A DNA stretch of 64,000 bases from Trypanosoma brucei (lineage: Eukaryota). Positions 34,650 to 51,364 of this stretch are shown piece after piece (the first letter of the stretch is position 1; every line of letters starts with the position of its first letter). The stretch lies in assembly GCA_000002445.1 (NCBI GenBank), contig CH464491.1, forward strand, positions 3,072,001 through 3,136,000. The letters are read 5' to 3'. The translations under genes and the position numbers were made by a program. The notes under the pieces were generated by a model. The model saw nothing but the letters and a program-made list of their open reading frames with translations, had not been told where the DNA came from and searched no databases.

Positions 34650-35024
34650 AAAGTGATGAACGAGCCTGATGCCATGAAACTGTGTAACCTGTCAAAGGTC
34701 CTTCCTAACATTCCATATGCTAGACATTCTGCTGGGTTTGGGGTGAGCAGGAGCGCATCATCCTCAGCCCCGTTTACTTCACGGAGTCAAACCAATATAA
34801 AGGTGGTGGGCCTTTATTGTAGTCGTGCACCTACAGAAGAAAAGGTTGTGGCCCAGGTGAAAGAGGAGGATGGAAGAGGGACAGGATCTTCTAGTAGGCG
34901 AAACATTTACGTTCGTGTACAGATTGACAAAATGACCATCGAAATGCTTCCACTCGACGTTATGCGAAGGAAGTATCCACAGGTGCTCATTGACTATTTG
35001 CTAGCAACAGCTGCATGGGTGTGA
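34650..35024 (+). CDS. Possible small hypothetical protein (weak)
   Basis: Only + strand ORF in the 1.5-kb spacer between RPS17 copy 2 and SF3B1. The ORF-track ORF spans 34563..35024, and I set the start at the in-frame ATG at 34650 (MNEPDAMKLCNLSKV...). No recognisable domain; called from position and length only. Confidence 0.2.
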   Translation, partial: KVMNEPDAMKLCNLSKVLPNIPYARHSAGFGVSRSASSSAPFTSRSQTNIKVVGLYCSRAPTEEKVVAQVKEEDGRGTGSSSRRNIYVRVQIDKMTIEMLPLDVMRRKYPQVLIDYLLATAAWV

Positions 35025-35808: not shown

Positions 35809-38800
35809 TTGGGAGAGGGTGGAGCCATGGCCGATGAAGACGGTTCTGTTGAACCGACGTTAAAAGCGCATCGCTGGGAGATGTCCTCCTCCGCATCTGC
35901 AGCTCCCACAACATCGCGGTGGGGCGCGGGGACGCCACGGCAGCGTGGTGGCGACACCCCAAAAGTGGTCGTCAACACGGAGTTGTCGGCGTGGCGTGGG
36001 CATGCAACACCAACACCGAGTGCGTACGCGATGGATCCTGCGAAGACCCCAACCATGCGTGCCACTGGTGGTGCGACACCGGTGCAAGGAGGTCAAACTC
36101 CGATGTTTGGTGGGCAGACACCGGTATTTGGAGGTCAGACACCGGCATTCGGTAGTGGAACACCCATGTTCACGGGGGCAACACCCGCCGCTGGCATGGC
36201 CTTTGGTGCAACTCCGAATTACCAGTTTGAAGGGACAACGCCTGTGCAGTCCCACTTTGCGGGGGGTGAGTCACAATCAGCTGTTACGGCTAACATCGGA
36301 GCCCAGGCAAGGAAATTGGAAATGCAGTGGCGCGTTAAGAATAAGCGTCTTACAGAGGAGTATCTCGACTCGATCCTTCCACCGGAATTTAAGCTTGTGG
36401 AACCACCAGCCGATTACAACCCACCGCCCACGGAAGAGCCTAACTTCTACGAGCTTGCCAGTAAGTCGTTGGATGTCTTTGTTGTGAACCAAAACAGCGA
36501 TGCGGCAGCTTCTATGACTTATGATATACCAGAAAGTCTGGGAGACGGTATGCCACAAATGCAAACTCAAGATGCGCCTGTTTTCGAGGTTCTGCTCAAG
36601 TACCATAACGTGAACCCGATACCTGACGAGGTGCTTCCCTCCTACATGCTGATGAAGAACCTCTTCAAGATCAAGAATGGCGATACCAACCAACGGCGGA
36701 TCGCCATGCGGTACTTGCTAGACAAGGCACGTATTTTTGGGAGTGGACCTCTTTTCCAGTTTACATTTCACGTTTGGCGTTCGGGAATCCTCGACGTGAT
36801 TGAGCAACATTACTATGTGGACCTTGTGAAAGGTGCGATTTCCAGGTTACAGAAAGACGTCCGTGGCTCGAGCAAGGAGATCGTTCACATGATGGAAGTC
36901 TTGCTCTCCGCCCAGGAGCGGGTGCTACGAGATGATGGCAAGGAGGTTCTCATTTTGCTCACGCGTGTGGTAGGCTATGAAGCAGTTTTTGAGGCAATTA
37001 AGGAGGACTTTGCCCACGCGGAAAGCGGTGTGCGTCGTCACACCGCTAAAGTTGTTGCAATAATAGCGTTTGCTGTGGGGCCAGAAATAGCGATAAAGAT
37101 AATTCATGGTATGTCACTGTCTCCGGTTGCCCTCGCTCGTCAGACGTCTGCGCGGGCCATAACTGAAATGGCAACCATCCTCATGCACGCCATCACTGGA
37201 GAATTAGTGGAGCTTGTACCTATTTTTGAAAAACTTCTGCGGGATGAACCGCGGGTGAAACGGGAGGCCGCAAGCGCGCTTGCTCACGTGGCGGAGGCAA
37301 CCTACCCTTATGGAATTGAGGAGTTGGATTCCCTCGTTTATATTGTGCGAGAGGAATGTAAGCGCGGCATCGGTACCACCACGGGGTTGTTCGTCCGCGC
37401 GTTCGGTGCGCTCATTCCGCTAATGGCCCCATATGATGCTCAAAAATACACATCAGATATGCTTCCAACGCTTGTAAATCAGTTTAACACGCCAGACGAT
37501 GAGCATCGCCGCGTTTTGCTTCAAGTGGTGCGACAATGCGTCTCGGCTGATGGAGTGACTGTGGATTTCATTCGTAACGTCATCTTGAGGCCGTTTTTTG
37601 AAGGATTTTGGACCATCCGTCGCGTAGCTGCTGATAGGAAAACAGCCGGTATCCTTATTGATACGACGGTGGGAATTGCACGGCGTATTGGCAGCACGGA
37701 GATTCTTCAATACCTCGTTCAAGACATGAAAGACGAGAATGAGCATTTCCAACGTATGGTTGTTGAGACGGTAAGACGTGTTATTGCAAACGTGGGTGCA
37801 GTTGGTGTTCCCGACACTCTTGTTGCGCTGTTGATGGACGGTGCGATCGCGGCCGTAAAACAGGACGAGACTGGCTTGAACCGTGTGGTGATGGAAGGCC
37901 TGGCGACCATCTGTAATGCCCTCGGTACTCGCCTGAAGCGGCACTTACGGCAGATATTTGATCTCATAAAAAGCCGTCGCGACATGCCTGGGATGATCCG
38001 GATGCAGGCAGCCGAGCTGGCGGCTCGCATTGCCACAACCGTGAAGGATGCAGGAGGAGCGTTGTTCCTGCAGGATCTGGGGCGAAGCCTCTTTGACCGC
38101 CTAGAAGACGACGAGGCCGCCGTGATGAGTGCCAACCTCAAGGCAACACGTGTCATCTTGGTGGAGCTTGGTGCTGCGAGGTACCAACCGCCAGTGCGAG
38201 AGCTCTTAAAGAAGTTGATGTACATAATTCCGAATCGCAATAGCAATGTGCAGCTGAACACCATTTTACTTGTGGAGGAGATCGCAACTAATTGTGACGA
38301 GGACGTCGAGGCCATTCACTTACAAGAGTTGGCGACGAAAGGGTTGTTTGAGCTCCTTGATGCCCACCGTCGTGAAACACGGCGGGCATGCACACGCACA
38401 TTTGGTGTTATTGCGCGGAAGATTCGACCATTTGCCATAATCCTGGAGCTCGTCGATAACTTTAAGCAGGATAAACGTAAGATTCGTATTTGCACAGCGG
38501 TGGCCCTAGGGGCGATAGCCCGCGAATGCGGTGCCTTTACTGTTATTCCTTACCTCCTGAACGAAAGCAAAATATGTGAGGGGGAGCAGGTGGCCACGAT
38601 TGTGCAGCACTCCATTCTTAAGGCCGTTCGATACATCTTCGAAGCTATTGGTGCAGCCGGAAAGGACTTTGTGTATCCTCTCGTACCGCTGTTAGTGCGA
38701 GCACTGACGGAAATGGAGATCCAGCACCGGCGTATGGCGGTTGAGGCATGTCGGTCAATTGTGCTGGCGGTCGCCGGCAACGACGGATTCGAGGATCTGG

Positions 38801-39126
38801 TGATCCACTTCCTCAACTTTATCCACCCCAACATTGTGGAACTTCTTTCGCGGAACGAGACGAAAATAAGTGAGGAGAGGCTTAAGATGGTCACGGCGGT
38901 TGTTGGTTATTACGAGGCAGCGCGCCTGGTAATTGGTTCGGGGAAGTTGTTTCAGTATTTGCTTCAGGGGTTATTCCACCCAGCAAAGAAAGTACGTGAC
39001 ATTTACCGTAGGACATATAACATGGTATATATGGCAAGCCCAGAGGCCCTTGTGCCATATTACCCGCGACTGGGGGATGACAATGAGCATACATATGTAC
39101 GGCACGAGTTGGAGGTGCTACTGTAA
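35809..39126 (+). CDS. SF3B1: Splicing factor 3B subunit 1 (SF3b155/SAP155)
   Basis: The N-terminal region carries TP-dipeptide-rich repeats (GGATPVQGGQTPMFGGQTPVFGGQTPAFGSGTPMFTGATPAAG), as in the SF3B1 N-terminus. The first HEAT region MKNLFKIKNGDTNQRRIAMRYLLDKARIFGSGPLF matches human SF3B1 [32 protein letters not shown]. About 800 aa of HEAT repeats follow, and total length is 1105 aa. Confidence 0.85.
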   Translation: MGEGGAMADEDGSVEPTLKAHRWEMSSSASAAPTTSRWGAGTPRQRGGDTPKVVVNTELSAWRGHATPTPSAYAMDPAKTPTMRATGGATPVQGGQTPMFGGQTPVFGGQTPAFGSGTPMFTGATPAAGMAFGATPNYQFEGTTPVQSHFAGGESQSAVTANIGAQARKLEMQWRVKNKRLTEEYLDSILPPEFKLVEPPADYNPPPTEEPNFYELASKSLDVFVVNQNSDAAASMTYDIPESLGDGMPQMQTQDAPVFEVLLKYHNVNPIPDEVLPSYMLMKNLFKIKNGDTNQRRIAMRYLLDKARIFGSGPLFQFTFHVWRSGILDVIEQHYYVDLVKGAISRLQKDVRGSSKEIVHMMEVLLSAQERVLRDDGKEVLILLTRVVGYEAVFEAIKEDFAHAESGVRRHTAKVVAIIAFAVGPEIAIKIIHGMSLSPVALARQTSARAITEMATILMHAITGELVELVPIFEKLLRDEPRVKREAASALAHVAEATYPYGIEELDSLVYIVREECKRGIGTTTGLFVRAFGALIPLMAPYDAQKYTSDMLPTLVNQFNTPDDEHRRVLLQVVRQCVSADGVTVDFIRNVILRPFFEGFWTIRRVAADRKTAGILIDTTVGIARRIGSTEILQYLVQDMKDENEHFQRMVVETVRRVIANVGAVGVPDTLVALLMDGAIAAVKQDETGLNRVVMEGLATICNALGTRLKRHLRQIFDLIKSRRDMPGMIRMQAAELAARIATTVKDAGGALFLQDLGRSLFDRLEDDEAAVMSANLKATRVILVELGAARYQPPVRELLKKLMYIIPNRNSNVQLNTILLVEEIATNCDEDVEAIHLQELATKGLFELLDAHRRETRRACTRTFGVIARKIRPFAIILELVDNFKQDKRKIRICTAVALGAIARECGAFTVIPYLLNESKICEGEQVATIVQHSILKAVRYIFEAIGAAGKDFVYPLVPLLVRALTEMEIQHRRMAVEACRSIVLAVAGNDGFEDLVIHFLNFIHPNIVELLSRNETKISEERLKMVTAVVGYYEAARLVIGSGKLFQYLLQGLFHPAKKVRDIYRRTYNMVYMASPEALVPYYPRLGDDNEHTYVRHELEVLL

Positions 39127-39753
39127 GAGCATGGATAAAGACGCACCGGGTCTGTTGCTTGGTGGTGATGGTGGGTGCATGCTTGTTGCTGACGTAAAGA
39201 GGTCGCAACGGAAAAGAAAAAAAAAGATGAATGAATGAGGATTCCCGTACATGGCGAACGAATGGGAAGGCACTGCAGACAGAGAAGATTAAGGGAGGAA
39301 GAGGAGGTAACACCAGTGGTAGCTATTTGGTATCTCGATTGAGTTACTGACAAATCCGAATGATATCGACTCTTGCCTCGCTCTTTTGCACGAGCCCCCG
39401 TCTCTTTCCACGTGACGGATTCCGTTTATCCGGTGGTGGTGGTGGTGGTGATAGCTTCTGTAAGGTGATCAGACTTCCGTGTATTCAATGTGGAAGCTTG
39501 TCGATCGCCGGCAGTAGGGCGGCTGGTTGATGGCACCCGTTTGACCTCTTTCGAGAAAGTACCGTGGTTGGAGCCATCTCCTTCCTCCGCTTGATTATGC
39601 TAGCGAAAGTAATGTTGTAAATAAACAATTTAAAACACGCATACTGCCACTGTGCACGCGCATTACTTTATTTGTTATCATGCTGTACCTGTTTACTTGA
39701 TGTTTATTTCCTTCTACTACTTCAAAAGGGTCTTCCTCGTTTGCCAGGTAAAA

Positions 39754-41847
39754 ATGAGAGAAAAGGAAGCACATAAGGGTAGGAATGGTGTGCTAAATGT
39801 TTCAAATCTTCCTGGTGAACATACATCTCTGGACAGCATAGGACAGCTGCACGACGCTCTTACCGGTGGCAATTGCAAGAGATATGTGTCCATTACCGCG
39901 CAGCACGACAGTCTTCTGTCTCTCACCCTCTCCCCTTCCCTTGCGAGTGCTGTTCAGCACATTACATCTCTCACTGCATCGCACAACCGGTTGAGCACAC
40001 TTCAGGGTATTGAGGCGTTTGTGTGCCTTGAGTTTCTTGACCTGAGCCACAACGCACTACGCATCTTAGACGCGCACTCAACAACGCTGCTGCGGAAACT
40101 TCGGTGCCTCAAGCGATGCAATTTTTCATATAATGAGATATGTATGGCTGACTTCGACACGACATTCCGCTGTGGTATTTCACATAATGAGTCAGGCGCA
40201 AATAAGGAAGGTGGTATTGCCTCAGCAGCAACACCGATGGCATCAGCCGGATCGGTGGGACCCGCAGTTCCCGGATTTTTAGAAGAACTCACCCACCTCG
40301 ATTTGTCTCACAATCAGCTCATTGAGGTGCCGGATCTTCGTTGTATACCAGTATTAGAGGAACTGAATCTTAGCTACAATCGCATCGATCTCATTGCAGA
40401 TCTTGATAACCGTTTGCCACTTCTGCGGCTCTGCTCGTTCTCCATCAGCCACAACTCACTTGCCGTTCTGCCGTCATTACTTCCCCTCACCGTGTTGGCA
40501 GGGACACTTTGCGTTCTGAATGTCGCGGGGAACCCCTGCGTACAGGACTTTGAATCAACTGATCCCGCGATGGGGGGTATTCGCGCTTGGTTGTTGTGGC
40601 TTCTGCCTTACCTCGAGTTGTTAGACGAGGTGCCCCTCACCACAGAGGAACGCCAGATAGCCTGCAAGCTTTTCCGTAGGAACAATAAACTTAGTTATGA
40701 GCTTATGGATGTGATGAATACCAATAATGGTACCCAGCTGGTTTCGTACTTGCGAAAGTTCACTCAGAGGACCACTTCAAGGTCACTTGTTGGCGCGAGA
40801 GAGTCGGTAAGAGAGAAGTCTCCACCTTCGCCCAACCCGGCCGTCGGTGCTGTAAACGGAGGCGTCATCAACAATGTTGGTGGAATCCGCTTTGCCACCG
40901 GTGCCGTGTTCCCCTCCGCCTCGCCCTCGCCGGCGGCGGATGGCACCGTGCGGAGAACGAGCTCGAAGCCACAGCCCATTGAGCTTGTTGTGCAGATGCT
41001 CCAGTGGAAGGTAAGGCAACTGTCAAACGTCATGGAGGTTCTTTGGCAAGAGAGTATGGCAAGACGCGTATTTGCCGTAAGGGTGCTACAGAGGCACGTT
41101 CGGGGGTTCTTGGCCCGGCGACAACTTCCAGAAGTCGTCCACAGAACCTGTACGCGCATAAGGACCAACATGTTAGCCAGTGGGCAACGACCTTATTTCC
41201 CTGACCAACGGAGGTCAGCGAAAGCCGATACCACCTTGAGTGTTGTGCGTTCGTTGGGCTGCGAAAGTATCAGTACCGCTGAAAGCGAACACAGTGTTCA
41301 CACCGAAATTATGCAGCGCATCGACAACTTCGACCATTTGTTCCGGCAAATGGAGGAGGAGTTGCACAAATTTAGGATATTCTGGGCCCGTACCAGAGAA
41401 AAGTCTGTCGTCGTGGTTCAGAAGTACTACCGCGGCTACCTTGACCGCAAACGGTGGCGAAACCTCAAGGAGAGCTATGATGTCTTCATCGACTCGCTGC
41501 GACCGTACGTTGTTGAATTGCAACGGGTATCCCGTGGTTATGTATCGCGAGCTCGGCTGGCGAAAGATTCCCGGCAGTTAAGGGAGATGAGCCGGCTTCG
41601 AGGAGAGGTGGCGGGGCTGCGTGCTGCCGTGGATGAAATGAGGGCCATACTGCAGCAGTATGCGCAAAAGCAACGACGTGGGGATCCGGAAAGCCCAGTG
41701 GTAGAGTCGCCCACAAAGCGTGCAGTTGCGCATAGCATCCCCCTCGCCAAAAACAGCGCAGCCAACACGGGCACCACACTTACCGCTGCCGCTACTGCAG
41801 CCGCCGCGCAGGCATCCGCTGTGGCTCGTATCAGCCCGGAACTTTGA
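39754..41847 (+). CDS. Leucine-rich-repeat protein with IQ calmodulin-binding motifs
   Basis: The ORF-track start at 39652 is GTG, and the first ATG at 39754 gives MREKEAHKG. SDS22-like LRRs are present (LDLSHNALRILD; LDLSHNQLIEVPDLRCIPVLEELNLSYNRIDLIADL; SISHNSLAVLPSLLPLTVL). At least two IQ motifs follow (RVLQRHVRGFLARRQL; VVVQKYYRGYLDRKRWRNL), then a coiled-coil-like tail (RLRGEVAGLRAAVDEMRAILQQYAQKQ). Confidence 0.6.
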   Translation: MREKEAHKGRNGVLNVSNLPGEHTSLDSIGQLHDALTGGNCKRYVSITAQHDSLLSLTLSPSLASAVQHITSLTASHNRLSTLQGIEAFVCLEFLDLSHNALRILDAHSTTLLRKLRCLKRCNFSYNEICMADFDTTFRCGISHNESGANKEGGIASAATPMASAGSVGPAVPGFLEELTHLDLSHNQLIEVPDLRCIPVLEELNLSYNRIDLIADLDNRLPLLRLCSFSISHNSLAVLPSLLPLTVLAGTLCVLNVAGNPCVQDFESTDPAMGGIRAWLLWLLPYLELLDEVPLTTEERQIACKLFRRNNKLSYELMDVMNTNNGTQLVSYLRKFTQRTTSRSLVGARESVREKSPPSPNPAVGAVNGGVINNVGGIRFATGAVFPSASPSPAADGTVRRTSSKPQPIELVVQMLQWKVRQLSNVMEVLWQESMARRVFAVRVLQRHVRGFLARRQLPEVVHRTCTRIRTNMLASGQRPYFPDQRRSAKADTTLSVVRSLGCESISTAESEHSVHTEIMQRIDNFDHLFRQMEEELHKFRIFWARTREKSVVVVQKYYRGYLDRKRWRNLKESYDVFIDSLRPYVVELQRVSRGYVSRARLAKDSRQLREMSRLRGEVAGLRAAVDEMRAILQQYAQKQRRGDPESPVVESPTKRAVAHSIPLAKNSAANTGTTLTAAATAAAAQASAVARISPEL

Positions 41848-42063
41848 CGGGGGAGCGTAGGGTTAAGTGCCTCATTGTTTTAACCGTTTCTGTAATTGTT
41901 CCATCTACGTAATTTGTATGAGGTGCTATCTCTACAGCCACGGCACCAATGTGAGTTTTCGCGAGAATGCACTGTCCGTATGAGAGGGGGCTGTGTATAT
42001 ATAAGCATGCGTATTTCAACACACATGCACGCACACACGCGTGCACACGTATACATATGTATC

Positions 42064-42098
42064 TATATATATATATATAGATATATAGATATATATGT
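42064..42098. repeat. Imperfect (TA)n/(ATAG)n microsatellite
   Basis: tatatatatatatatagatatatagatatatatgtgtgt read directly in the spacer after the LRR-IQ gene. Confidence 0.85.
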
Positions 42099-42463
42099 GT
42101 GTACATATGCGTATGAGTGTTCGTCTGTGTCTCTGTGTGTGTGTGTCCCATTGCCATAATGTTTCGTTGAATTTCGTGAATGTTTATCAAACTGCTTCTC
42201 ACGTTAATACTACCCTTGTTTCTTTTTCTTTTCCATCCCTCTTTATGGCTTCGCACCCTCTACTTCCTGCACACCGGTACACTACATGATTCACATGTTT
42301 AGGGGGGGCCTCTGCCCGTTACTGCCAAATTATTCTCGTGTTTAACACTCGGTGTATGCGTTCTTGCTTCTTCCCCGTCTTCCCTTGAAATTGATGCACA
42401 CTTCAATTCTCCAGGGCGGAGTAAAGTAAGCGTGCCGGTAAAGGATATATAGCGCATCAGTAA

Positions 42464-43513
42464 ATGGTAGCGAAGCTGCAGCACAATCCAGCTCCCACGA
42501 CACTTAACTTCTATGAGAAAAGCTTCCAACAGCTTAGTGACGTCCAACAGCGGCAAACCGGCCTTCTCATTGGAGCCGCCGTGGGAGATGCGGCGGCACG
42601 CGCCCTCGATGGCTACACGGCCGAGGAGGTTGCCGCCGTCGCAGCTGAGAGTGGGTCATTGCAGGATGAGGACGAAGATCCCGTAGTATTCGCTTCTGTT
42701 ACCCCACGTGAGCATAAGTCTGGTTTGCTTCGTCACCACTCTTACACGTTTTACCTCTTTTCACAGCTACTGCGGGTCATGGCTACTTCCCGTGGTGACT
42801 TCCCCGTACAATACGTGAAAAACGAATGGGTGGCCACCGCCAGGGCTCATCCTGATTGCTTTGTCCGCGAGCACGCTTCACTGCTGCATGTTTTGTGCAT
42901 CACCATGCAACTACCGGTCATTTACCCATGGGCTGACGACAGCACGTTGCGTGAATACGCGAGTGACTTTTTGGAGTTCCTCACGGAAACGCCGGCGGAA
43001 CGGGCAGTCGCCTCACGCGAAGACGTGTATGCCTACACTAATAGTGTCTTGGGCGTTGCTCTTCGCTGTCTGCAAAGTAATCCTGATCCGTATCGGAATG
43101 CCGCATTTATGGCCGCTCCCGGGACCGCTCATGTCTTTCCCGACGACCTGGCATTGTATTGCCCACCGGCTCTGGTGGGATCTTCACACTCTCGTACCGA
43201 AGAATTAAGTGAAGCAGACAGCAAAACAGTTCCCTTGTTTCCTGCGCGGCTCCTCGAGAGCGATGTACGCGTCGTGCGTGAATGTTTAGTTGTGGCGCGA
43301 GGGGCAGCATCGTTCGCCGAGGGCATTAAAGCAGCCATTCACCTCGGTGGACCCGTCTGTCAACGTAGCCTTATTGTAGGTGCACTACTTGGAGCACGAA
43401 TGGGAGTCCGCCGCATTCCCATAAGCTGGTTAAGTGCGACCTACGACCATGTCCCCCTCGTCACACTTGCGTTGCAGGTTGCACAGTGGAGTTGGAATCC
43501 ACCGCACCACTGA
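42464..43513 (+). CDS. ADP-ribosylglycohydrolase-fold protein, probably non-catalytic (metal-binding motif lost)
   Basis: The N-terminal GLLIGAAVGDAAARALD matches the ARH family GxLxGxAxGDAxG motif. The C-terminal GGPVCQRSLIVGALLGARMGVRRIPISWL matches the family motif GGDTDT(I/N)AAIAGALxGAxxGxxxIPxxW. The DTDT divalent-cation ligands are replaced by PVCQ. Confidence 0.6.
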   Translation: MVAKLQHNPAPTTLNFYEKSFQQLSDVQQRQTGLLIGAAVGDAAARALDGYTAEEVAAVAAESGSLQDEDEDPVVFASVTPREHKSGLLRHHSYTFYLFSQLLRVMATSRGDFPVQYVKNEWVATARAHPDCFVREHASLLHVLCITMQLPVIYPWADDSTLREYASDFLEFLTETPAERAVASREDVYAYTNSVLGVALRCLQSNPDPYRNAAFMAAPGTAHVFPDDLALYCPPALVGSSHSRTEELSEADSKTVPLFPARLLESDVRVVRECLVVARGAASFAEGIKAAIHLGGPVCQRSLIVGALLGARMGVRRIPISWLSATYDHVPLVTLALQVAQWSWNPPHH

Positions 43514-43969: not shown

Positions 43970-45439
43970 ATGGGCACCGTGTCTCCGGCACGGCGTGTTG
44001 CGTCACCAGGCAAGGGAAAGCGGTCACCTTCGCGGGGGGAAACTCCAAGTGAAGGCAGAACACGACGTGCGGGGTCAAGTCCTTCCTCACGGCCGGGAAT
44101 GCAAACGGCATCGCAGCGTGCGGCAAGGAAAAAGGAGGTCCGGCGACTCCGTGATGCAGAGCTTCTTCTTGATGAAGCGCCGCTGAGCATGGTGGGAGAA
44201 CGCGCACAGGATGCACTTGAGGCAATGCTACGTGCTTTGGACATACGCCGCAACGCGTCGGCAACGCCCAAGAAAATGCAGCCGGTATGGCATCACGTAA
44301 AAGCGCTTGTTGTCACTGCTAATCGAGAGGGCCTTCGCCGCGCCTATGCCGCATTTCCGGCAGAGGAAGGTCACTACTTTTTCGGGAAGGCTCTGTCCAC
44401 ACTTGAGTATTCTGCAAGCACCGTCAACACAGCAGCGGACGGTGGTGAGTTTGCGGAGTGTCCGCTGCTTCTCAGTCACCTAATGGAGGCGACGCTCAAC
44501 AACATTGCTTTTCAACAATATATCGCGCATGAGCCTCCGGAGGCCATTTTGAAAACCCTCCAGCGGGCACTGAAGGTGCAGCACCATCAAGCGTTTAGAA
44601 CCTTGACATTGTATAACATGGCTGTTGCTTTTCTAGCCGCGCGACGGTATGAAGATGCTACAGAATTTGTTGCACGTTGCAGTCAAGTGGCCGAAGTGTG
44701 CTTGGAACTTGAAGTTTCGCTGACACGGGAGATATCATCACTCTACAAGGAATATCACACAATGGTCGCTACCCACGCCATTATGTGTCATCATTTACTT
44801 GCAGGGCTAGCAGCGTGGAGTGGAGAAAGTGACATGGAGGTGTACCACGCTCAGCTTGCTCTGTGCTGCGCAACGAAGTTCCTTGCAGAGGGTAGCGCGC
44901 TCGTCTCGCGCTGTCAGCAACGACTTACTGCCGCCAAAAGCGGAAACTCGGCAGCTGTGATTGCACAGAGTGACGAACCGCCACGTATGCAAATGATGAC
45001 CGATGACCTCGAGATTCTTGCAAGTCCACTTTTTTTACAGTTTTTACTGGAGACGCAGCGGATGCAGCGAATTGTTTTCCCACCGCTGAAGGGGTTACAA
45101 AGGCGTAAAACGGTAGTGAAACGTGGACAGAGATTAGGATCCGGTAAGTCATCGCCCGAAGTCGAGGCCGAGGACACCGGCCTCACCGGCAGCGCCCCGC
45201 ATCAACCAGCGGTCGACGGTAACGGAGAAGAAGAAAAAGCGGGTACCCACGCTTCCATCAGTTATTCAAGATCTCCGTCGCAGGGGGTCGGTGCAACCAC
45301 CGACGTACGGATTGTATGCTCCCCCGTCGCATGTATTGCCACTGGTTGTGACATGCGTACCGGAGACGGCGTACGAGTGTTACAAAGGTCTTCGCAAGGA
45401 CGTAAGGGGGCTGATGTGCTCTTTGGGTCGACTGCATGA
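43970..45439 (+). CDS. Hypothetical protein with basic S/R/P-rich N-terminus and TPR-like helical region
   Basis: 489-aa ORF in the polycistron orientation. The N-terminal 70 aa are basic and Ser/Pro-rich, and the middle carries helical-repeat-like segments (LYNMAVAFLAARRYEDATEFVARCSQVAE). The last about 50 codons overlap the next ORF (45291..) in another frame, so the 3' end and the relationship to the downstream gene are uncertain. Confidence 0.45.
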   Translation: MGTVSPARRVASPGKGKRSPSRGETPSEGRTRRAGSSPSSRPGMQTASQRAARKKEVRRLRDAELLLDEAPLSMVGERAQDALEAMLRALDIRRNASATPKKMQPVWHHVKALVVTANREGLRRAYAAFPAEEGHYFFGKALSTLEYSASTVNTAADGGEFAECPLLLSHLMEATLNNIAFQQYIAHEPPEAILKTLQRALKVQHHQAFRTLTLYNMAVAFLAARRYEDATEFVARCSQVAEVCLELEVSLTREISSLYKEYHTMVATHAIMCHHLLAGLAAWSGESDMEVYHAQLALCCATKFLAEGSALVSRCQQRLTAAKSGNSAAVIAQSDEPPRMQMMTDDLEILASPLFLQFLLETQRMQRIVFPPLKGLQRRKTVVKRGQRLGSGKSSPEVEAEDTGLTGSAPHQPAVDGNGEEEKAGTHASISYSRSPSQGVGATTDVRIVCSPVACIATGCDMRTGDGVRVLQRSSQGRKGADVLFGSTA

Positions 45440-45458
45440 ACTGAATGCTGCAGATGAA

Positions 45459-48086
45459 ATGATTGAACCGGGAACGTTGGAATCGGGATGTGGACGATCG
45501 CTCTGGAAGCTGAACGACAATACCGCGGAGAGTGCGCCGCCGCCGGGAAGGTACCTCCGAATAACTGATAGGAGACTACGCATGTTGTCCGCCCTTGTGC
45601 GCGACCTTCGCTTCGAAAAACTTCTTGAGGCCGCAATTCTGGCACAAAGCTACTGGCGGGGAATCTTGTCACGCCGGGAGAATAAACACAGGCTGCCGAT
45701 GCTACAGGAACGAATGCGGCAGAGGGAAGCCGTAGAGCTTATACAACATGCGTACCGTAATCATCTTGCCACTCGCGGACCCATCAAAGAGAAGCACGAG
45801 CTTCGGGCTCACCGTCTCTTGGTACAGCGTCTAGTGGTAATTCAACGGCACCTTCGCGGTAGGCAGAGTGTAGTGGAGGAGCGAAACCGTGGCCTAGGTG
45901 TAATTGTGCAATTAAATGAAGCCATTTTAGAGGCCCGACGCCGGGTTGCGGCATCCATTGTCATACAATCTTCCTGGCGCATGTGTGCTGTCCGCATCCG
46001 CATCCTGAGGCTGCTCGCCGCCACAATTCGGGTTCAGTCCGTGTGGCGAGGTCACGTGGGTCGGGTGGAAGCACGTGAGAGGCGGGTCCGTGAGCGGCTG
46101 CGAAAGCAGGACCGATTGGCGGTGCTCCTCCGTCATGTTTATCCGGTCCAAAAGCGGTGGAGAGGTGTGCTGGCGATACGAAAGGCGAAAGAATACGTGG
46201 AAGGTTTGAAGAAAAATGTCGTGGCGTATTTAGAAGAACAAGAGAGGATAGTAGATGCCATGTGGGGTAGATTCAAGTGCGTGGCAAATGTAGAGTTGTC
46301 CGTGTTGAAGATATTGGATGTGCTGCGTGCTTACCGTTCGCGAGAGGAATGTGCTAAAATGTATCCTTCGATGCTCACGCGACGTCGCTTTTTGTTACGC
46401 ATAGTATGGAAGAAACGCGCAACTCATATTGCTGGGATCATGCGTGAGCAGCAACTAACGAAATGGATGTTGCAGCGGCGCCGCGAGGAGGTGGCGGACG
46501 CTGTTCTGCTCCTTCAGTGCGCCGTGCGCCGATGGTTTGCCCAAAGGAAAAGTATGGCCCTGCGCCGGGCGTTAGACTGGACGCATGTATGTGCCCGCAA
46601 GATACAATCCATGTACAAACGTCAAATGGGCCGCCGTATGTTCTTAGAAGCCAAGATGGCTACCAAACTGAGGGAGGAGCAACGTATGATCTCTCAACTG
46701 AGGCACTACTGCGCCTCCAAGATACAGGCAACATGGCGTATGTTCACCGTGTGGCATGAGAATAAGGACTACCTTCATTTCTTGCACCATGGTCGTCATA
46801 AATATGCAACAACTATCAGGAATGCTTGGATCACCTACAGAGAGCGGCAACAGAAGAAAGTAATCATCGGGATGCGTCTTATGGAGCACCAGCAAAAACA
46901 GAGCGCTCAAGAGCAGCTTTTGTCAGTTTTGCGTATCCAAGCCATGGTCCGCATGTTCCTCGTTCGATCCCGAATGCTGCGAGATGGTGTGCAACTGCGA
47001 CCGACGCTGGCCAAGCTGCATCGCTCCGCGAGAAGTATTCAGATGTCCTGGCGTCGACACGCTGCCTATGAGTACGTTTCGCAACTCCGCTTTTCGCGTG
47101 CGTACTACGACCAACACAAGGTGAACATGGAGTCCCTGCACACGTACGCAACCATGATCCAATCTCTGGTGCGGGCAAAGGTCATCAACCCGTGGCTGGT
47201 AGCGGTACGGGAGCTGGAGCTCGAGCAAGCTAGCACAGAAGAGAAAGAAAGAAGACGGGAGAAAATGTTAAAAACATATGCTCTATTTACAAAAGAAAAT
47301 ATGTTCCCCGGCGCAGGTAACAGACTTTCCGCATGCGGCCCCGAAGCCCTTGTGGCGGGAGGAAGAACGTCACTCGATACCGGCTCTTTTGTGACTCCCC
47401 TCCGGAACACAGGTACGAGTTATATCTCTGAGGGTCCATGTTCATTCAGTGTGAAGCTATGTGAAACGTGCGTATTGCCAACTCGGTCAGTGAGTCGCTC
47501 TTGTCTGTCGGGCACGTCGCAATCCGCAGATATTTGCGCGCAGAAGGGTGACGAGCACCAATCGTTGGACACTACTAGCTTACACCAAGTCGATGGCCAG
47601 AGATCACCCTCCTCGGACCAATTAGACGTAGTCAAGTCTTGCACCGCAAACGCTGTTCACCCGCCTTTGCGCAACATGGACACGAGGTCAACTACTATTC
47701 TCGGTTCCTTGTCAGCTATCTTTTCAGGACGCCCTGATCTGGAGGGTTCTGCCGATGGACGCAGAACCTCTGCAGGGTTGAGGGGGAGGGAAACTTCGCA
47801 TTCTTCGTGTCCAGCAGGGTCTGAGTTTGCAAGCGTCACAACATCTGAATATTCTTCCTCTCTATGCTATGATCCAGTTGTTCTTGCCGCGGTGGTTGCA
47901 TTAATTCAGCGCTGCGGTCGTGGATTTCTTTCGCGGGCTTCCACACGACGGAGCCTTCAGAAAAGTGATCGGTGGCTGGCCGCCGTTGATATACAGCGGA
48001 TGTGGCGTGGGTTCTGCGCTCGGCAGCTGGTTGAGGTTTACTACGAGTTCTACACGGAAGAGGTGGAGGTAGCCGCAGCCGAGTAA
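45459..48086 (+). CDS. IQ-motif array protein (at least 14 IQ calmodulin-binding motifs)
   Basis: Repeated [IVL]Q-x3-[RWY]-[GR]-x3-R motifs throughout, for example ILAQSYWRGILSRR, IQHAYRNHLATR, VIQRHLRGRQSV, IVIQSSWRMCAVRIR, IRVQSVWRGHVGRVE and VQKRWRGVLAIRK. The array continues with LQCAVRRWFAQRK, ARKIQSMYKRQMGRR, ASKIQATWRMFTV, LRIQAMVRMFLVRSR, ARSIQMSWRRHAAY, IQSLVRAKVI, LIQRCGRGFLSR and VDIQRMWRGFCARQ. The ORF is open from 45291, overlapping the upstream ORF. 45459 is the first in-frame ATG after the upstream stop at 45437-45439, so the true start is unresolved. Confidence 0.55.
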   Translation: MIEPGTLESGCGRSLWKLNDNTAESAPPPGRYLRITDRRLRMLSALVRDLRFEKLLEAAILAQSYWRGILSRRENKHRLPMLQERMRQREAVELIQHAYRNHLATRGPIKEKHELRAHRLLVQRLVVIQRHLRGRQSVVEERNRGLGVIVQLNEAILEARRRVAASIVIQSSWRMCAVRIRILRLLAATIRVQSVWRGHVGRVEARERRVRERLRKQDRLAVLLRHVYPVQKRWRGVLAIRKAKEYVEGLKKNVVAYLEEQERIVDAMWGRFKCVANVELSVLKILDVLRAYRSREECAKMYPSMLTRRRFLLRIVWKKRATHIAGIMREQQLTKWMLQRRREEVADAVLLLQCAVRRWFAQRKSMALRRALDWTHVCARKIQSMYKRQMGRRMFLEAKMATKLREEQRMISQLRHYCASKIQATWRMFTVWHENKDYLHFLHHGRHKYATTIRNAWITYRERQQKKVIIGMRLMEHQQKQSAQEQLLSVLRIQAMVRMFLVRSRMLRDGVQLRPTLAKLHRSARSIQMSWRRHAAYEYVSQLRFSRAYYDQHKVNMESLHTYATMIQSLVRAKVINPWLVAVRELELEQASTEEKERRREKMLKTYALFTKENMFPGAGNRLSACGPEALVAGGRTSLDTGSFVTPLRNTGTSYISEGPCSFSVKLCETCVLPTRSVSRSCLSGTSQSADICAQKGDEHQSLDTTSLHQVDGQRSPSSDQLDVVKSCTANAVHPPLRNMDTRSTTILGSLSAIFSGRPDLEGSADGRRTSAGLRGRETSHSSCPAGSEFASVTTSEYSSSLCYDPVVLAAVVALIQRCGRGFLSRASTRRSLQKSDRWLAAVDIQRMWRGFCARQLVEVYYEFYTEEVEVAAAE

Positions 48087-48727
48087 GCTTCATGAGGTCA
48101 TCACGGAAGAATAGCAGCTGCCGACGTACATAGGAAACACACCTTTCCCACCCGCTCATTCACATGCGCTGGTCACGCGTGGACTTTTGTTTAAACTTGT
48201 CTTTCTGCTGCTGGAAAGAGTGAGATGTACCCAATAAAGATGAAATGCCGTCATGGTTATCACCGCTACGGCAAGGACCGGGCGTGTAGATATATTGTAC
48301 ATGTTTCTATTAGTTACTTTTCATGTTCTACTCCTCAATCGTCCCAACATACACCCCTCTTTTTCTACTTTAAATTCCCTCCCCTGGGGGTGTGCACACA
48401 GGGCCACAACAACGCTGTATTTCCGATCTCCTTCTTACCTTCTTCATTCATTCCCTTTACTGCTACCTCCTTCTAACACCGTGGCCAGCATATCCCGAGG
48501 CTTTATATATAGGTATATACGCCGGCGTCCGGGAAGATAAGTGATTTTTTTTAAAAAAAGGAAAAAAGAAGGGGTTTCTGCTGGAGCGGTAGCAGGGACA
48601 ATCGTGAAGATAAAAGAGAAAACAGAACTTAATTGGGAAGTCGCTCTTGTGGGGAACGAAAGAGAGGAGAAAAGAGGGAAGGCGCCCGAGGGGAAAGAGC
48701 CAGAAAACTATTGGAGAGGAAGGCATC

Positions 48728-51364
48728 ATGCAACACGACCGTGACCGGTACGACAGCGAGGAAGATGATGAGGAATCTCTCCCTTTCGATGGTATTGAGA
48801 AGGCTTCTGTGCTTCAGCAGTGCCGCGTGTTCAACGACGTGCAGCTCGATATCTCAGCCTGCCTGCGCTGTTTGACGGAGTGCTTATACCTCATTTATAC
48901 GGGAACTACATTTACAGAAGCAGAAGCCACGGAACTTTTCTTTATGTCAACAAAGCTGCTTCAGTCAAATAGATCAAGGTTGCGACGGTTGCACTACGTG
49001 CTGATGAAGGAGCTCAGCCCATTTGTCGAGCAGAGCTTTATTGCATCCAACTCACTTATGGGTGACACCAAAAGCAACAATGAGTCTAATAAGCGAAATG
49101 GTATGCGTACCCTCTGCAAGGTAATGAATCCTTCACTTTACCCTTTGTTGGACCGTACCATCGTGGAGTCCCTCACGTCGCGGAGCGAGAAGGTCCTATT
49201 AGCCTCTCTCATTACAGGCTTCCACGTGGCATTGAGCCACCCCGATTTAGCGCGCAAGTGGAGTACGCAGCTGAACGAAGCCATTCGAGTGCTGGGAAAC
49301 ACGCAATACCTGACTGTCGCGATCATGCATATTATCCGCAAGAGCGACCGCGTTACTGTTAAGCGGTTCATTGAGCAGGTAAGAAATGGGGTGGTTCGGT
49401 CTCCCCTTGCTCTCTCTTTCCTCGTGAAGTTGACAACCGACGTTCTGCAGGAGGGGTTCGAGGAAGATCCCGAGGTCAAAAAATACATTGCCACTATGAG
49501 GCATAGCAGCAGTGAAATTGTGGTGTTTGACACGCTGAGGTGTATGTGTGTGGCCGGCAACGCGTCGCCGCAGCAATTTGCGTTAGTTGCCTCGGTCGCG
49601 CAGATATATTTGAACGCGAAAACCAGTGTATCGCGTTTCTGCGCCATTCGCGTTCTGCACGATCTCGCCGCAATATACCCTGACGCGGTAACACCCATCA
49701 GTTCCGATATTGAGCAGCTCATAATGGATCAAAACCGCTTCACCGCCTCTTTTGCAATGCTAACATTATTGAAAACTGGCACGGAAGCATCTGTTGAGCG
49801 GCTTATCGGTGCGCTTGGTAGTGTGGGACAACTGCGAGAATTACCCGATGAATTCAAGGTGGCTATTACACTCGAACTGCGGAGCGTGAGTGCGAGATTT
49901 CCACAAAGGTATAACTTGTTCCTCGGCTTCCTTGTCAAGCTGCTAAGTGATGATGGCAGCAGCACCTTTAAGGAAAGCATCGTTGAGGTGATTACGAGCG
50001 TAGCAAAAGCGAATGATGGCGCAAGGGAGGCCGCGCTCAAACACCTTGTCGATTATGTCGAAGACTGCGCCCACGTTAGCATTCTTCACCGAGTGCATAT
50101 GTACCTGGGCGATGAAGTTCCACGGTCCGAAAACCCAGCCCTTTTCATCCGCTATATTAACAACCATGCTGCTCTGGAGTTCCCGGAGGTGCGGGCCGCC
50201 GCCGTCAGCACATTCGCGAGAATCGCTGCCCGCGTTCCATCGCTGCGCCGATCTATTCTCCCGTTGTTGAAGCACAAATGTAGCGACGAGGATGACGAGG
50301 TGCGAGACCGCGCCATTATGTACACAAAAGTGTTCTTGCTGGGCGACGAAGACGTGATTCATTCAATGGTGACGGAGGTTTCCAATACCGTGGCCGCGAG
50401 GCGAAAGTTGATAACCCCCATGACCCCCACGCCACTTCTGGAGCCAGTCAAGCGAAGGATGTGCCAAGCGGACCACTCGACGGTGGCGGTTGAAACAGGA
50501 ATTGGTAAAGAAGCGGCTCACAGTAGCAGTGGAGGCGGTTCAGTTCCGGGCAACCAGTACTCCTCGGCAATATCGGAGGGACGTGCAAAACTACTGAAAA
50601 TCAAGCAGTTGCAGGAGCTGGGTGAACCTCGTGCGTCAAGTGAGCCGGTGCCCCTATCAGATCCCGACAGCGAGTACTTTGTAACACTCATTAAGCACGT
50701 ATATGTCGCCCATGTGGTGTTGCAATTTAGGGTCAAAAACACCATGGATAGTGTGGTCTTCCGTCGCGTTACGGTGGAGATGGACACGGAAGAGTTGGAT
50801 GCAGAGCCGCTCTATGCAATACCCATCAGCGCCATCGAGCCTGGAGCTACAGAGTATGCTTATGCGGTTCTACAATACAGCGAAGGGAGGTACCCAAGTG
50901 GGACGCTGGGCTGCCGTATCAAGTTCGCTTTACAGGAGCGTGATGGCAGTAGTGTCGCTGGTGAAGGTGAAGAAGAGTACCCACTTGAGGATTTCGAAGT
51001 CAACGTGAGTGACTTCATTACGCCAATCGATCTTGGTGAATGTTTTCAACAGAAGTGGGAGGAACTTCGGCAAGAGGAAACATGTGGGACGTATGCCTTG
51101 AGCTCCATGCGCAACCTCACTGCTGCCGCGCACGAGCTGGTAGAATTCTTCGGCATGCATGTAGTTGGGGGGAAAGTGGATAAAATTACAGCGGCATCCC
51201 ATACACTTCTTATGTCGGGAAGTATGGTAGATGGCGCAAGTTCGCTCGTGATGATTAACGCTCGTCTGTTCATTGCCACAGACAACACTGTGGCCCTGCA
51301 ACTAACTTTGAGGGGTGGTAGTTCCGAATTGCGTGAATATCTCTCTGGTGCGCTGCTGTCGTAG
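48728..51364 (+). CDS. COPG: Coatomer (COPI) subunit gamma
   Basis: The ORF-track ORF begins at 48647, and I place the start at the ATG at 48728 (MQHDRDRYDSEEDDEESLPF). The N-terminus EKASVLQQCRVFNDVQLDISACLRCLTECLYLIYTGTTFTEAEATELFFMSTKLLQSNRSRLRRLHYVLMKEL aligns with COPG [73 protein letters not shown]. An adaptin-N-like HEAT trunk follows, then a C-terminal appendage. The product is about 878 aa. Confidence 0.85.
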   Translation: MQHDRDRYDSEEDDEESLPFDGIEKASVLQQCRVFNDVQLDISACLRCLTECLYLIYTGTTFTEAEATELFFMSTKLLQSNRSRLRRLHYVLMKELSPFVEQSFIASNSLMGDTKSNNESNKRNGMRTLCKVMNPSLYPLLDRTIVESLTSRSEKVLLASLITGFHVALSHPDLARKWSTQLNEAIRVLGNTQYLTVAIMHIIRKSDRVTVKRFIEQVRNGVVRSPLALSFLVKLTTDVLQEGFEEDPEVKKYIATMRHSSSEIVVFDTLRCMCVAGNASPQQFALVASVAQIYLNAKTSVSRFCAIRVLHDLAAIYPDAVTPISSDIEQLIMDQNRFTASFAMLTLLKTGTEASVERLIGALGSVGQLRELPDEFKVAITLELRSVSARFPQRYNLFLGFLVKLLSDDGSSTFKESIVEVITSVAKANDGAREAALKHLVDYVEDCAHVSILHRVHMYLGDEVPRSENPALFIRYINNHAALEFPEVRAAAVSTFARIAARVPSLRRSILPLLKHKCSDEDDEVRDRAIMYTKVFLLGDEDVIHSMVTEVSNTVAARRKLITPMTPTPLLEPVKRRMCQADHSTVAVETGIGKEAAHSSSGGGSVPGNQYSSAISEGRAKLLKIKQLQELGEPRASSEPVPLSDPDSEYFVTLIKHVYVAHVVLQFRVKNTMDSVVFRRVTVEMDTEELDAEPLYAIPISAIEPGATEYAYAVLQYSEGRYPSGTLGCRIKFALQERDGSSVAGEGEEEYPLEDFEVNVSDFITPIDLGECFQQKWEELRQEETCGTYALSSMRNLTAAAHELVEFFGMHVVGGKVDKITAASHTLLMSGSMVDGASSLVMINARLFIATDNTVALQLTLRGGSSELREYLSGALLS

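What the first reader, a model, noticed from the sequence alone, without database searches (positions are those of the whole stretch)
42464..43513. ADP-ribosylglycohydrolase-fold protein with the DTDT metal-binding motif replaced (likely pseudoenzyme)
Both terminal signature regions of the ARH/DraG family are recognisable: the N-terminal GxxGxAxGDA, and the C-terminal GG----(S/I)-I-GAL-GA--G----IP--W. The C-terminal motif reads GGPVCQRS instead of GGDTDT. In characterised ARH enzymes those Asp/Thr residues coordinate the catalytic Mg ions, so this protein is unlikely to hydrolyse ADP-ribose in the canonical way. It may be a binding or reader module, or have diverged to another chemistry.
Basis: partly seen in the sequence, partly recalled or inferred. 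Interest (0 to 1): 0.5.

Follow-up and report, generated by a model that had tools for sequence, protein, structure and literature searches.

The report
Known trypanosome mitoribosome assembly factor mt-SAF23
This gene encodes mt-SAF23, an already structurally characterised helper protein for building the small subunit of the Trypanosoma brucei mitochondrial ribosome; it keeps the shape of an ADP-ribose-removing enzyme but has lost the metal-binding residues, so the finding is correct but already explained.

Summary

The pseudoenzyme reading holds and extends:
- **All three metal-ligand motifs are gone.** Glu becomes D/N/E/Q (D49). Thr-Asp-Asp becomes S93-Y94-T95. Asp-x-Asp-Thr becomes P297-V-C299-Q300.
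- **The loss is ancestral.** None of 51 orthologues keeps the motifs, including a syntenic positional orthologue from a distant kinetoplastid-like metagenome organism.

One addition: the nearest relatives outside the group are the selenoprotein J / J1-crystallin branch (GGCNCSR), which also lacks the Asp ligands. The motif may therefore have been lost before the protein was recruited to the mitoribosome.

Verdict: observation confirmed, interpretation supported, biology already known, low interest.

The parts
42464..43513 (+). Coding sequence of mt-SAF23 (349 aa plus stop), an ARH-fold mitoribosomal small-subunit assembly factor. Identical to T. brucei brucei TREU927 XP_829249.1 / UniProt Q382Z4.
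42560..42610 (+). N-terminal ARH signature G33-LLIGAAVGDAAARAL-D49. The glycine/Asp42 framework is kept. The canonical metal-ligand Glu (GDALGxPxE) is replaced by D49, which is not conserved (D20/N13/E7/Q3 of 51 orthologues).
   Evidence: posterior >0.99.
42734..42751 (+). H91-H92-S93-Y94-T95-F96. This is the position of the canonical Thr-Asp-Asp metal-ligand motif, now S-Y-T (S in 49/51, F/Y, T/S across orthologues). There is no acidic residue.
   Evidence: Transitive hhalign mapping through the SelJ-type family, and direct mapping with the 51-sequence alignment at posterior about 0.48. Conservation.
43346..43366 (+). G295-G296-P297-V298-C299-Q300-R301, replacing canonical GGD(T/A)D(T/S). P297, Q300 and R301 are invariant in the 17 aligned orthologues (16 trypanosomatid sequences plus the window protein). 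C299 is Ser in several Trypanosoma species.
   Evidence: posterior about 0.98.
43379..43429 (+). G306-ALLGARMGVRRIPIS-W322. This is the retained C-terminal ARH helix framework (G...GA..G...IP..W), which drives the Pfam match.
   Evidence: posterior 1.0.
43481..43510 (+). Family-specific C-terminal tail A340-QWSWNPPHH-349. It is nearly invariant in orthologues and is not among the columns conserved in canonical ARHs. It is a candidate docking element in the assemblosome (inference).
42361..42414 (+). Polypyrimidine tract followed by the first AG, about 50 nt upstream of the ATG. It is a candidate trans-splice acceptor region, inferred from the sequence only.
   Evidence: sequence read directly.

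Best explanation
The gene encodes mt-SAF23, a nuclear-encoded, catalytically dead ARH-fold protein. It works as a structural assembly factor for the kinetoplastid mitochondrial small ribosomal subunit. [quoted passage not shown] This cluster prevents the binding of ribosomal proteins that form a large part of the mature body. In the late intermediate it is replaced by mS42, mS43, mS47, mS48, mS60, mS61, mS64 and mS66. Shown here: the ARH fold and its glycine-rich helix framework are retained, but every canonical metal-ligand motif is replaced, and this holds in all orthologues found. Inferred: it does not hydrolyse ADP-ribose and acts as a scaffold or placeholder. Its family-specific N- and C-terminal blocks and the conserved HHS / GGPxCQR surface serve protein-protein or protein-RNA contacts. 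It descends from the already non-canonical SelJ/J1-crystallin branch of the superfamily.
Against: No biochemical assay of mt-SAF23 was found, so inactivity is inferred from sequence. I could not read coordinates. I therefore could not confirm that no other acidic residues reach the former metal site, nor see what occupies the cleft in 6SGB/9HNY. The T-D-D mapping has only moderate posterior (about 0.48). The original description (Saurer et al. 2019, Science) is not in the held library, so any RNAi phenotype specific to mt-SAF23 is unverified. The SelJ affinity is modest: median 73 vs 61 bits, and for the T. brucei protein itself 72.7 vs 71.2.
Confidence: 0.85

Rival explanations
1. mt-SAF23 keeps a ligand-binding cleft and acts as a reader or sensor of ADP-ribose or a related NAD-derived metabolite, coupling SSU assembly to metabolic state.
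For: The ARH fold is intact. The replaced loop is under strong constraint in trypanosomatids: P297, Q300 and R301 are invariant, as are H92 and S93. That is more than a merely decayed site would need.
Against: The conserved substrate-loop motif NG..M..P and the T-H motif of canonical ARHs are not recognisably kept, though the posteriors there are low. In more distant orthologues the GGPxCQR loop is replaced by long variable insertions. The ligand list of the re-modelled structure mentions GTP, phosphate, SAM, Fe4S4 and CoA-like densities in other chains, and none for this chain.
Confidence: 0.07
2. It is still an enzyme with a different chemistry, for example using Cys299, His91 and His92 instead of a di-metal centre.
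For: The nearest outside relatives (SelJ type) carry several conserved Cys at the former ligand positions: SCY and GGCNCSR. Fish members are annotated as selenoproteins, which hints at redox chemistry in that branch.
Against: Of those Cys, only C299 survives in mt-SAF23. It is Ser in T. congolense, T. theileri, T. melophagium, T. conorhini and P0029, and it is absent in many distant orthologues. The protein is a stoichiometric structural subunit (PMC8784144).
Confidence: 0.05
3. The missing DTDT is a sequencing error or a strain-specific degenerate allele of an otherwise active enzyme.
For: None found.
Against: The same motif state occurs in T. b. gambiense, T. congolense, T. vivax, T. cruzi, Leishmania, Leptomonas and about 30 more distant orthologues. 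The ORF is intact, and its sequence matches the chain sequence of the cryo-EM model entry 9hny.
Confidence: 0.01

Closest known systems
mt-SAF23 of Trypanosoma brucei (PDB 6SGA/6SGB/7PUA chain FP; 9HNY chain FP)
   Different: Nothing substantive. The five substitutions relative to 6SGA are presumably strain differences (inference).
Canonical ADP-ribosylhydrolases (DraG, ARH1, ARH3, MJ1187, T. thermophilus ARH; Pfam PF03747)
   Different: All metal-ligand residues are replaced: Glu, Thr-Asp-Asp and Asp-x-Asp-Thr. The substrate loop is not recognisable. There are extra family-specific N- and C-terminal blocks. Sequence identity is only 11-16%. The DraG equivalog model scores 10.6 bits against a cut-off of 337.
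Selenoprotein J / J1-crystallin subfamily of ARH-like proteins (fish, molluscs, amphioxus, hemichordates and many unnamed eukaryote-like metagenome sequences)
   Same: These are the nearest relatives outside the orthologue group. Shared features: the N-terminal 'L(S/T)xxQQRxVxxxxGAxVADAAxR' block, an inserted segment with a conserved Phe after helix 2, Cys and Arg in GGxxC(S/Q)R, and loss of the Asp ligands. J1-crystallins, like mt-SAF23, are used as structural proteins. SELENOJ is functionally uncharacterised and a structural role has been suggested (PMC13134290).
   Different: The SelJ type has the invariant 'RPLHWxY', 'SPFY..TG..SCY.D' and 'GGCNCSR' motifs, which mt-SAF23 lacks (it has ARALDGY, HHSYT and GGPVCQR). 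The score margin over canonical ARHs is modest. No mitoribosomal role is known for SelJ proteins.
Other enzyme-derived architectural proteins of mitoribosomes and their precursors (e.g. mt-SAF35 photolyase-like, mt-SAF36 acyltransferase-like, mt-SAF38 thioesterase-like; Diplonema LSU proteins with dead hydrolase/macrodomain)
   Same: The same principle: a metabolic-enzyme fold is recruited as a structural part, usually without catalytic residues (PMC8784144; PMC10325924; PMC11785013).
   Different: They have unrelated folds, so the likeness is functional only.

Membership tests
ARH/DraG superfamily (Pfam PF03747 ADP_ribosyl_GH) | Sequence match above Pfam's curated gathering score | tested here: met
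   35.3 bits vs cut-off 26.2, E 1.3e-8. The best stretch is only residues 277-319.
ARH/DraG superfamily (Pfam PF03747 ADP_ribosyl_GH) | All-alpha ARH fold | tested here: met
Catalytically competent ADP-ribosylhydrolases (DraG/ARH1/ARH3 type) | Binuclear Mg/Mn site: Glu of GDALGxPxE, Thr-Asp-Asp, and Asp-x-Asp-Thr of GGDTDT | tested here: not met
   E->D49 (variable D/N/E/Q). TDD->S93-Y94-T95. DxDT->P297-V-C299-Q300. No orthologue keeps them.
Catalytically competent ADP-ribosylhydrolases (DraG/ARH1/ARH3 type) | Hydrolysis of protein- or metabolite-linked ADP-ribose | not testable with these tools
   This needs an enzyme assay. No published assay was found.
DraG (NCBIfam TIGR02662 equivalog) | Score above the equivalog cut-off | tested here: not met
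   10.6 bits vs cut-off 337.
mt-SAF23 (kinetoplastid mt-SSU assembly factor) | Sequence identity with the protein modelled as chain FP in the T. brucei assemblosome | tested here: met
   100% to 9hny_FP and 344/349 to 6sga_FP. Exact match to XP_829249.1.
mt-SAF23 (kinetoplastid mt-SSU assembly factor) | Physical presence in mt-SSU assembly intermediates and release before the late intermediate | not testable with these tools
   Taken from PMC8784144 and the PDB entry names. Not re-derived here.
mt-SAF23 (kinetoplastid mt-SSU assembly factor) | Conserved single-copy orthologue across kinetoplastids | tested here: met
   There are 23 trypanosomatid homologues and about 25 more distant full-length relatives. 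One distant relative sits in a four-gene syntenic block. The taxa of most distant members are unknown because they come from metagenomes.
Selenoprotein J / J1-crystallin subfamily | Closer by profile comparison to this subfamily than to canonical ARHs | tested here: met
   hhalign E 1.4e-35 vs 1.4e-24. 48 of 51 orthologues score higher on the SelJ-type HMM, but the median margin is only about 12 bits. The reciprocal best PDB hit of the SelJ profile is mt-SAF23.
Selenoprotein J / J1-crystallin subfamily | Signature motifs ADAAxRPLHWxY, SPFY..TG..SCY.D and GGCNCSR | tested here: not met
   mt-SAF23 has GDAAARALDGY, HHSYT and GGPVCQR. Only ADAA.R and the C..R of the last motif are shared. It is therefore a relative of the subfamily, not a member.

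The most novel reading that the evidence does not exclude
The conserved surface that replaced the di-metal site (His91/His92-Ser93 plus Pro297-x-Cys299-Gln300-Arg301) may not be mere debris. It could be a functional site inherited from the SelJ/J1-crystallin branch. It might bind a defined partner, such as a metabolite, a peptide segment or rRNA, and so time the release of the solvent-side assembly-factor cluster. If so, the mt-SAF23 cryo-EM model would be the first experimental structure informing the uncharacterised selenoprotein J family. It would also show that this branch was recruited twice for structural jobs: jellyfish lens crystallin and kinetoplastid mitoribosome assembly.
Probability: 0.12. 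Interest if true: 0.5.

Novelty: already known. Interest (0 to 1): 0.2.

Why it matters
The main value is closing the finding. The 'odd ARH without DTDT' is the published mitoribosomal assembly factor mt-SAF23, one more enzyme fold reused as scaffolding in the very protein-rich kinetoplastid mitoribosome. Two small additions may be useful to specialists. First, all three metal-ligand motifs are lost in every orthologue found, so the inactivity inferred from sequence is ancestral rather than a T. brucei quirk. Second, the family appears to stem from the selenoprotein J / J1-crystallin branch, which had already exchanged the Asp ligands for Cys/Arg. That links a solved structure to a functionally uncharacterised selenoprotein family.

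Tried and rejected
- **Papers not available.** Saurer et al. 2019 (Science), the original mt-SAF23 description, and Castellano et al. 2005 (the SelJ paper) are not in the held library. Statements on mt-SAF23's position come from PMC8784144, and statements on SelJ from PMC13134290.
- **Empty literature searches.** Searches combining ADP-ribosylglycohydrolase with mitoribosome and trypanosome terms, and searches by accession number, found nothing. The supplement of PMC11785013 does not mention the protein.
- **A misplaced T-D-D alignment.** A first global hhalign against canonical ARHs put the T-D-D motif on the acidic loop Q67-D68-E69. I rejected this for four reasons: the confidence there was low, the loop is not conserved among orthologues, its pLDDT is below 50, and the deeper alignment places T-D-D on S93-Y94-T95 instead.
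- **AlphaFold database comparison.** Foldseek against the AlphaFold database was not available, so the SelJ relationship rests on sequence profiles only.
- **Position of the selenocysteine in SelJ.** The database sequences carry no U or X, so I dropped this question.
- **Taxa of the distant orthologues.** The last named-database search, with the distant-orthologue profile, returned only five proteins. The taxa of most distant orthologues remain unknown.
- **Possible split gene downstream.** I tested whether ORFs 43970-45439 and 45291-48086 are one gene split by a frameshift. Only a weak match was found (E 0.12), so this is inconclusive.
- **Coordinates.** The tools give no access to coordinates of the model or of PDB entries, so I could not measure which residues line the former metal site.

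Full report
**1. Observation.** An ATG-to-stop ORF lies at exactly 42464..43513 on the + strand and encodes 349 aa. The window has about 50% G+C and a steadily positive cumulative GC skew. All long ORFs are on the + strand, as expected for a trypanosomatid polycistronic unit. The protein passes Pfam's curated threshold for ADP_ribosyl_GH (PF03747): 35.3 bits against 26.2, E 1.3e-8. The match is driven by residues 277-319. It falls far below the DraG equivalog model, at 10.6 bits against 337.
- G33-LLI-G37-AAV-G41-D42-A43, at nt 42560-42610.
- G295-G296-PVCQR-SLIV-GALLGARMGVRRIPISW, at nt 43346-43429.

**2. Identity.** A sequence search of the PDB finds the protein itself. It is 100% identical over all 349 residues to chain FP of 9HNY ("ADP-ribosylglycohydrolase"). 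It is 344/349 identical to chain FP of 6SGA/6SGB/7PUA ("mt-SAF23"). An exact-sequence look-up identifies it as XP_829249.1 / EAN80137.1 / UniProt Q382Z4 of Trypanosoma brucei brucei TREU927. The same sequence occurs in T. equiperdum, on a 5.26 Mb contig.

Lenarčič et al. 2022 (PMC8784144) list mt-SAF23 among ten assembly factors carried over from the mt-SSU assemblosome: mt-SAF2, 5, 21, 23, 26, 27, 29, 31, 32 and 33. In the middle assembly intermediate these cover the solvent-exposed side. [quoted passage not shown] In the late intermediate they are replaced by mS42, mS43, mS47, mS48, mS60, mS61, mS64 and mS66. 9HNY is a re-modelling of the same assemblosome map (PMC11785013). That paper's ligand list names GTP, phosphate, SAM, Fe4S4 and CoA-like densities in other chains, and mentions none for this chain.

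**4. Metal ligands.** From established knowledge of DraG, ARH1 and ARH3, the binuclear Mg/Mn centre is built from three elements: a Glu after the GDALG motif, a Thr-Asp-Asp motif, and the Asp-x-Asp-Thr of GGDTDT. In 35 canonical relatives recovered here these positions are 100% conserved.

| Canonical ligand | mt-SAF23 residue | Posterior | State in 51 orthologues |
|---|---|---|---|
| Glu (GDALGxPxE) | D49 | 0.996 | D in 20, N in 13, E in 7, Q in 3 |
| Thr-Asp-Asp | S93-Y94-T95 | about 0.48 | S in 49; F/Y; T/S |
| Asp-x-Asp-Thr | P297-V298-C299-Q300 | about 0.98 | P in 35; C in 33, S in 7; Q in 33, H in 8 |

The T-D-D mapping is supported independently by the transitive alignment through the SelJ-type family. 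An earlier global alignment put T-D-D on the acidic loop Q67-D68-E69. I rejected it because that loop is not conserved and is poorly predicted. The NG..M..P substrate loop and the T-H motif of canonical ARHs also have no recognisable counterpart, though the posteriors there are low. What the protein keeps is the glycine/alanine helix-packing framework: G33, G37, A39, D42, A43, F284, G295, G296, G306, G310, A311, G314, I318, P319 and W322.

**5. Orthologues.** All 23 homologues in the named database are trypanosomatid: T. b. gambiense, T. congolense, T. grayi, T. vivax, T. theileri, T. cruzi, T. rangeli, Leishmania, Leptomonas, Porcisia and Angomonas. All carry GGP(V/T)(C/S)QR(S/A) and HHS(Y/F)(T/S). 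P297, Q300, R301, H92 and S93 are invariant in the 17-sequence alignment.

An exhaustive profile search of 1.84 billion representatives adds about 25 more distant full-length relatives, at E 1e-84 to 1e-18. They share the family's own N-terminal block (F/Y-x-x-S-F-K-Q-L-S-x-x-Q-Q-x-Q-V-G) and C-terminal block (W-L-S-A-T-x-D-H ... Q-W-S-W-N-P). In many of them the GGPxCQR loop carries long, variable insertions. None of the 51 sequences has T-D-D or D-x-D-T.

One distant relative is P0034, 33% identical, from an environmental metagenome scaffold. It sits in a collinear four-gene block that matches the window at 34650-35018, 39982-41676 (an LRR+IQ protein), 42479-43501 and 44231-44941. It is therefore a positional orthologue. 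The loss of the catalytic motifs is ancestral to the whole orthologue group.

**6. Nearest outside relatives.** After the orthologues, the first hits of the exhaustive search (E 1e-16 to 1e-10) are not canonical enzymes. They form a family with the N-terminal block "QQRxVAxxxGAxVADAAxRPLHWxY", with "SPFY..TG..SCY.D" at the T-D-D position, and with "GGCNCSR" at the GGDTDT position. A profile of that family retrieves proteins named selenoprotein J and crystallin J1A/B/C, from fish, molluscs, amphioxus and a hemichordate.

The evidence for the relationship is as follows:
- Profile-profile comparison gives E 1.4e-35 (score 194) for mt-SAF23 against this family, and E 1.4e-24 (score 134) against canonical ARHs.
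- 48 of 51 orthologues score higher on the SelJ-type HMM. The median is 73 against 61 bits, but the T. brucei protein itself scores only 72.7 against 71.2.
- The best solved-structure match of the SelJ-type profile is mt-SAF23, at 71.8 bits, just above MJ1187 at 69.2 bits.

SELENOJ and the J1-crystallins are described as a distinct subfamily that is functionally uncharacterised and possibly structural (PMC13134290). I therefore propose, with moderate confidence (about 0.6), that mt-SAF23 derives from this already non-canonical branch. On that view the Asp ligands were lost before the protein was recruited to the mitoribosome. mt-SAF23 does not carry the branch's own signature motifs, so I call it a relative and not a member.

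**7. Mechanism.**
- **Shown by published structures:** the protein is a stoichiometric component of mt-SSU assembly intermediates. It sits on the solvent side of the body and leaves between the middle and late intermediates.
- **Shown here:** the ARH fold is kept without the canonical metal-ligand residues, and this is conserved across the group.
- **Inferred:** it is a non-catalytic placeholder or scaffold. The conserved replaced surface and the invariant C-terminal AQWSWNPPHH tail are interfaces.
- **Rivals:** a metabolite reader (0.07), a new chemistry (0.05) and an artefact (0.01). Each is weighed in its own section.

Enzyme folds that lack catalytic residues are a recurrent source of mitoribosomal architecture (PMC10325924; PMC11785013).

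**8. Verdict.** The object is an already named protein with a solved structure, so novelty is "already known" and interest is low (0.2). The SelJ/J1-crystallin link and the family-wide mapping of lost ligands are minor additions.

Noticed in passing
window 39652-41847 (+), and L001 840-2795: The upstream neighbour is an LRR + IQ-motif protein (Pfam LRR_4, LRR_8, IQ). The same LRR+IQ gene directly precedes the mt-SAF23 orthologue in a distant kinetoplastid-like metagenome scaffold. Four genes are collinear between the two.
   Followed up: yes
window 43970-45439 and 45291-48086 (+); L001 4276-7161: Two overlapping ORFs in different frames (489 aa, and 931 aa with IQ motifs) occupy the position where the metagenome scaffold has one 1423-aa gene with IQ hits. 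The first ORF matches residues 118-345 of that gene (E 2.7e-30). The second gives only a weak match (E 0.12). This may be a frameshift or split gene, or just an artefact of listing ORFs from a GTG start.
   Followed up: partly
window about 42000-42147 (intergenic): There is a stretch rich in (CA)n, (TA)n and (TG)n microsatellites between the LRR-IQ gene and mt-SAF23. Downstream, polypyrimidine tracts at 42213-42243 and 42361-42386 are followed by AG. This is typical trypanosome intergenic and trans-splicing architecture.
   Followed up: no
proteins P0056-P0068, P0075 etc. (alignment A2): In the selenoprotein J / J1-crystallin family, the canonical Asp ligands are replaced by conserved Cys: SCY for TDD and GGCNCSR for GGDTDT, plus another near-invariant Cys in G..C..PGSF. 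Intermediate forms GGD(N/S/I/T)C(S/G)R also exist. This looks like a Cys-based metal or redox site in place of the di-Mg site. The position of the Sec residue could not be recovered from the database sequences.
   Followed up: partly
   Followed up: no
PDB 6sga_FP vs window protein: There are five substitutions between the window protein (TREU927) and the 6SGA chain: P10S, D167G, R179Q, A249T and K252E. All lie outside the conserved motifs and are presumably strain differences.
   Followed up: no
window 35809-39126, 48647-51364, 53673-56129 (+): Other genes of the same + strand unit are an SF3b1-like HEAT-repeat protein, a coatomer gamma subunit (Adaptin_N plus COP-gamma platform) and a protein with a MoaC domain. 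They are functionally unrelated to mt-SAF23, as expected for trypanosome polycistrons.
   Followed up: partly
protein P0069 (canonical ARH hit): This 329-aa representative contains the block 'AIARGGDADTNRCIVGALIG' twice, at positions 234 and 291. It looks like an internal duplication or an assembly chimera. I removed it as alignment master for that reason.
   Followed up: no
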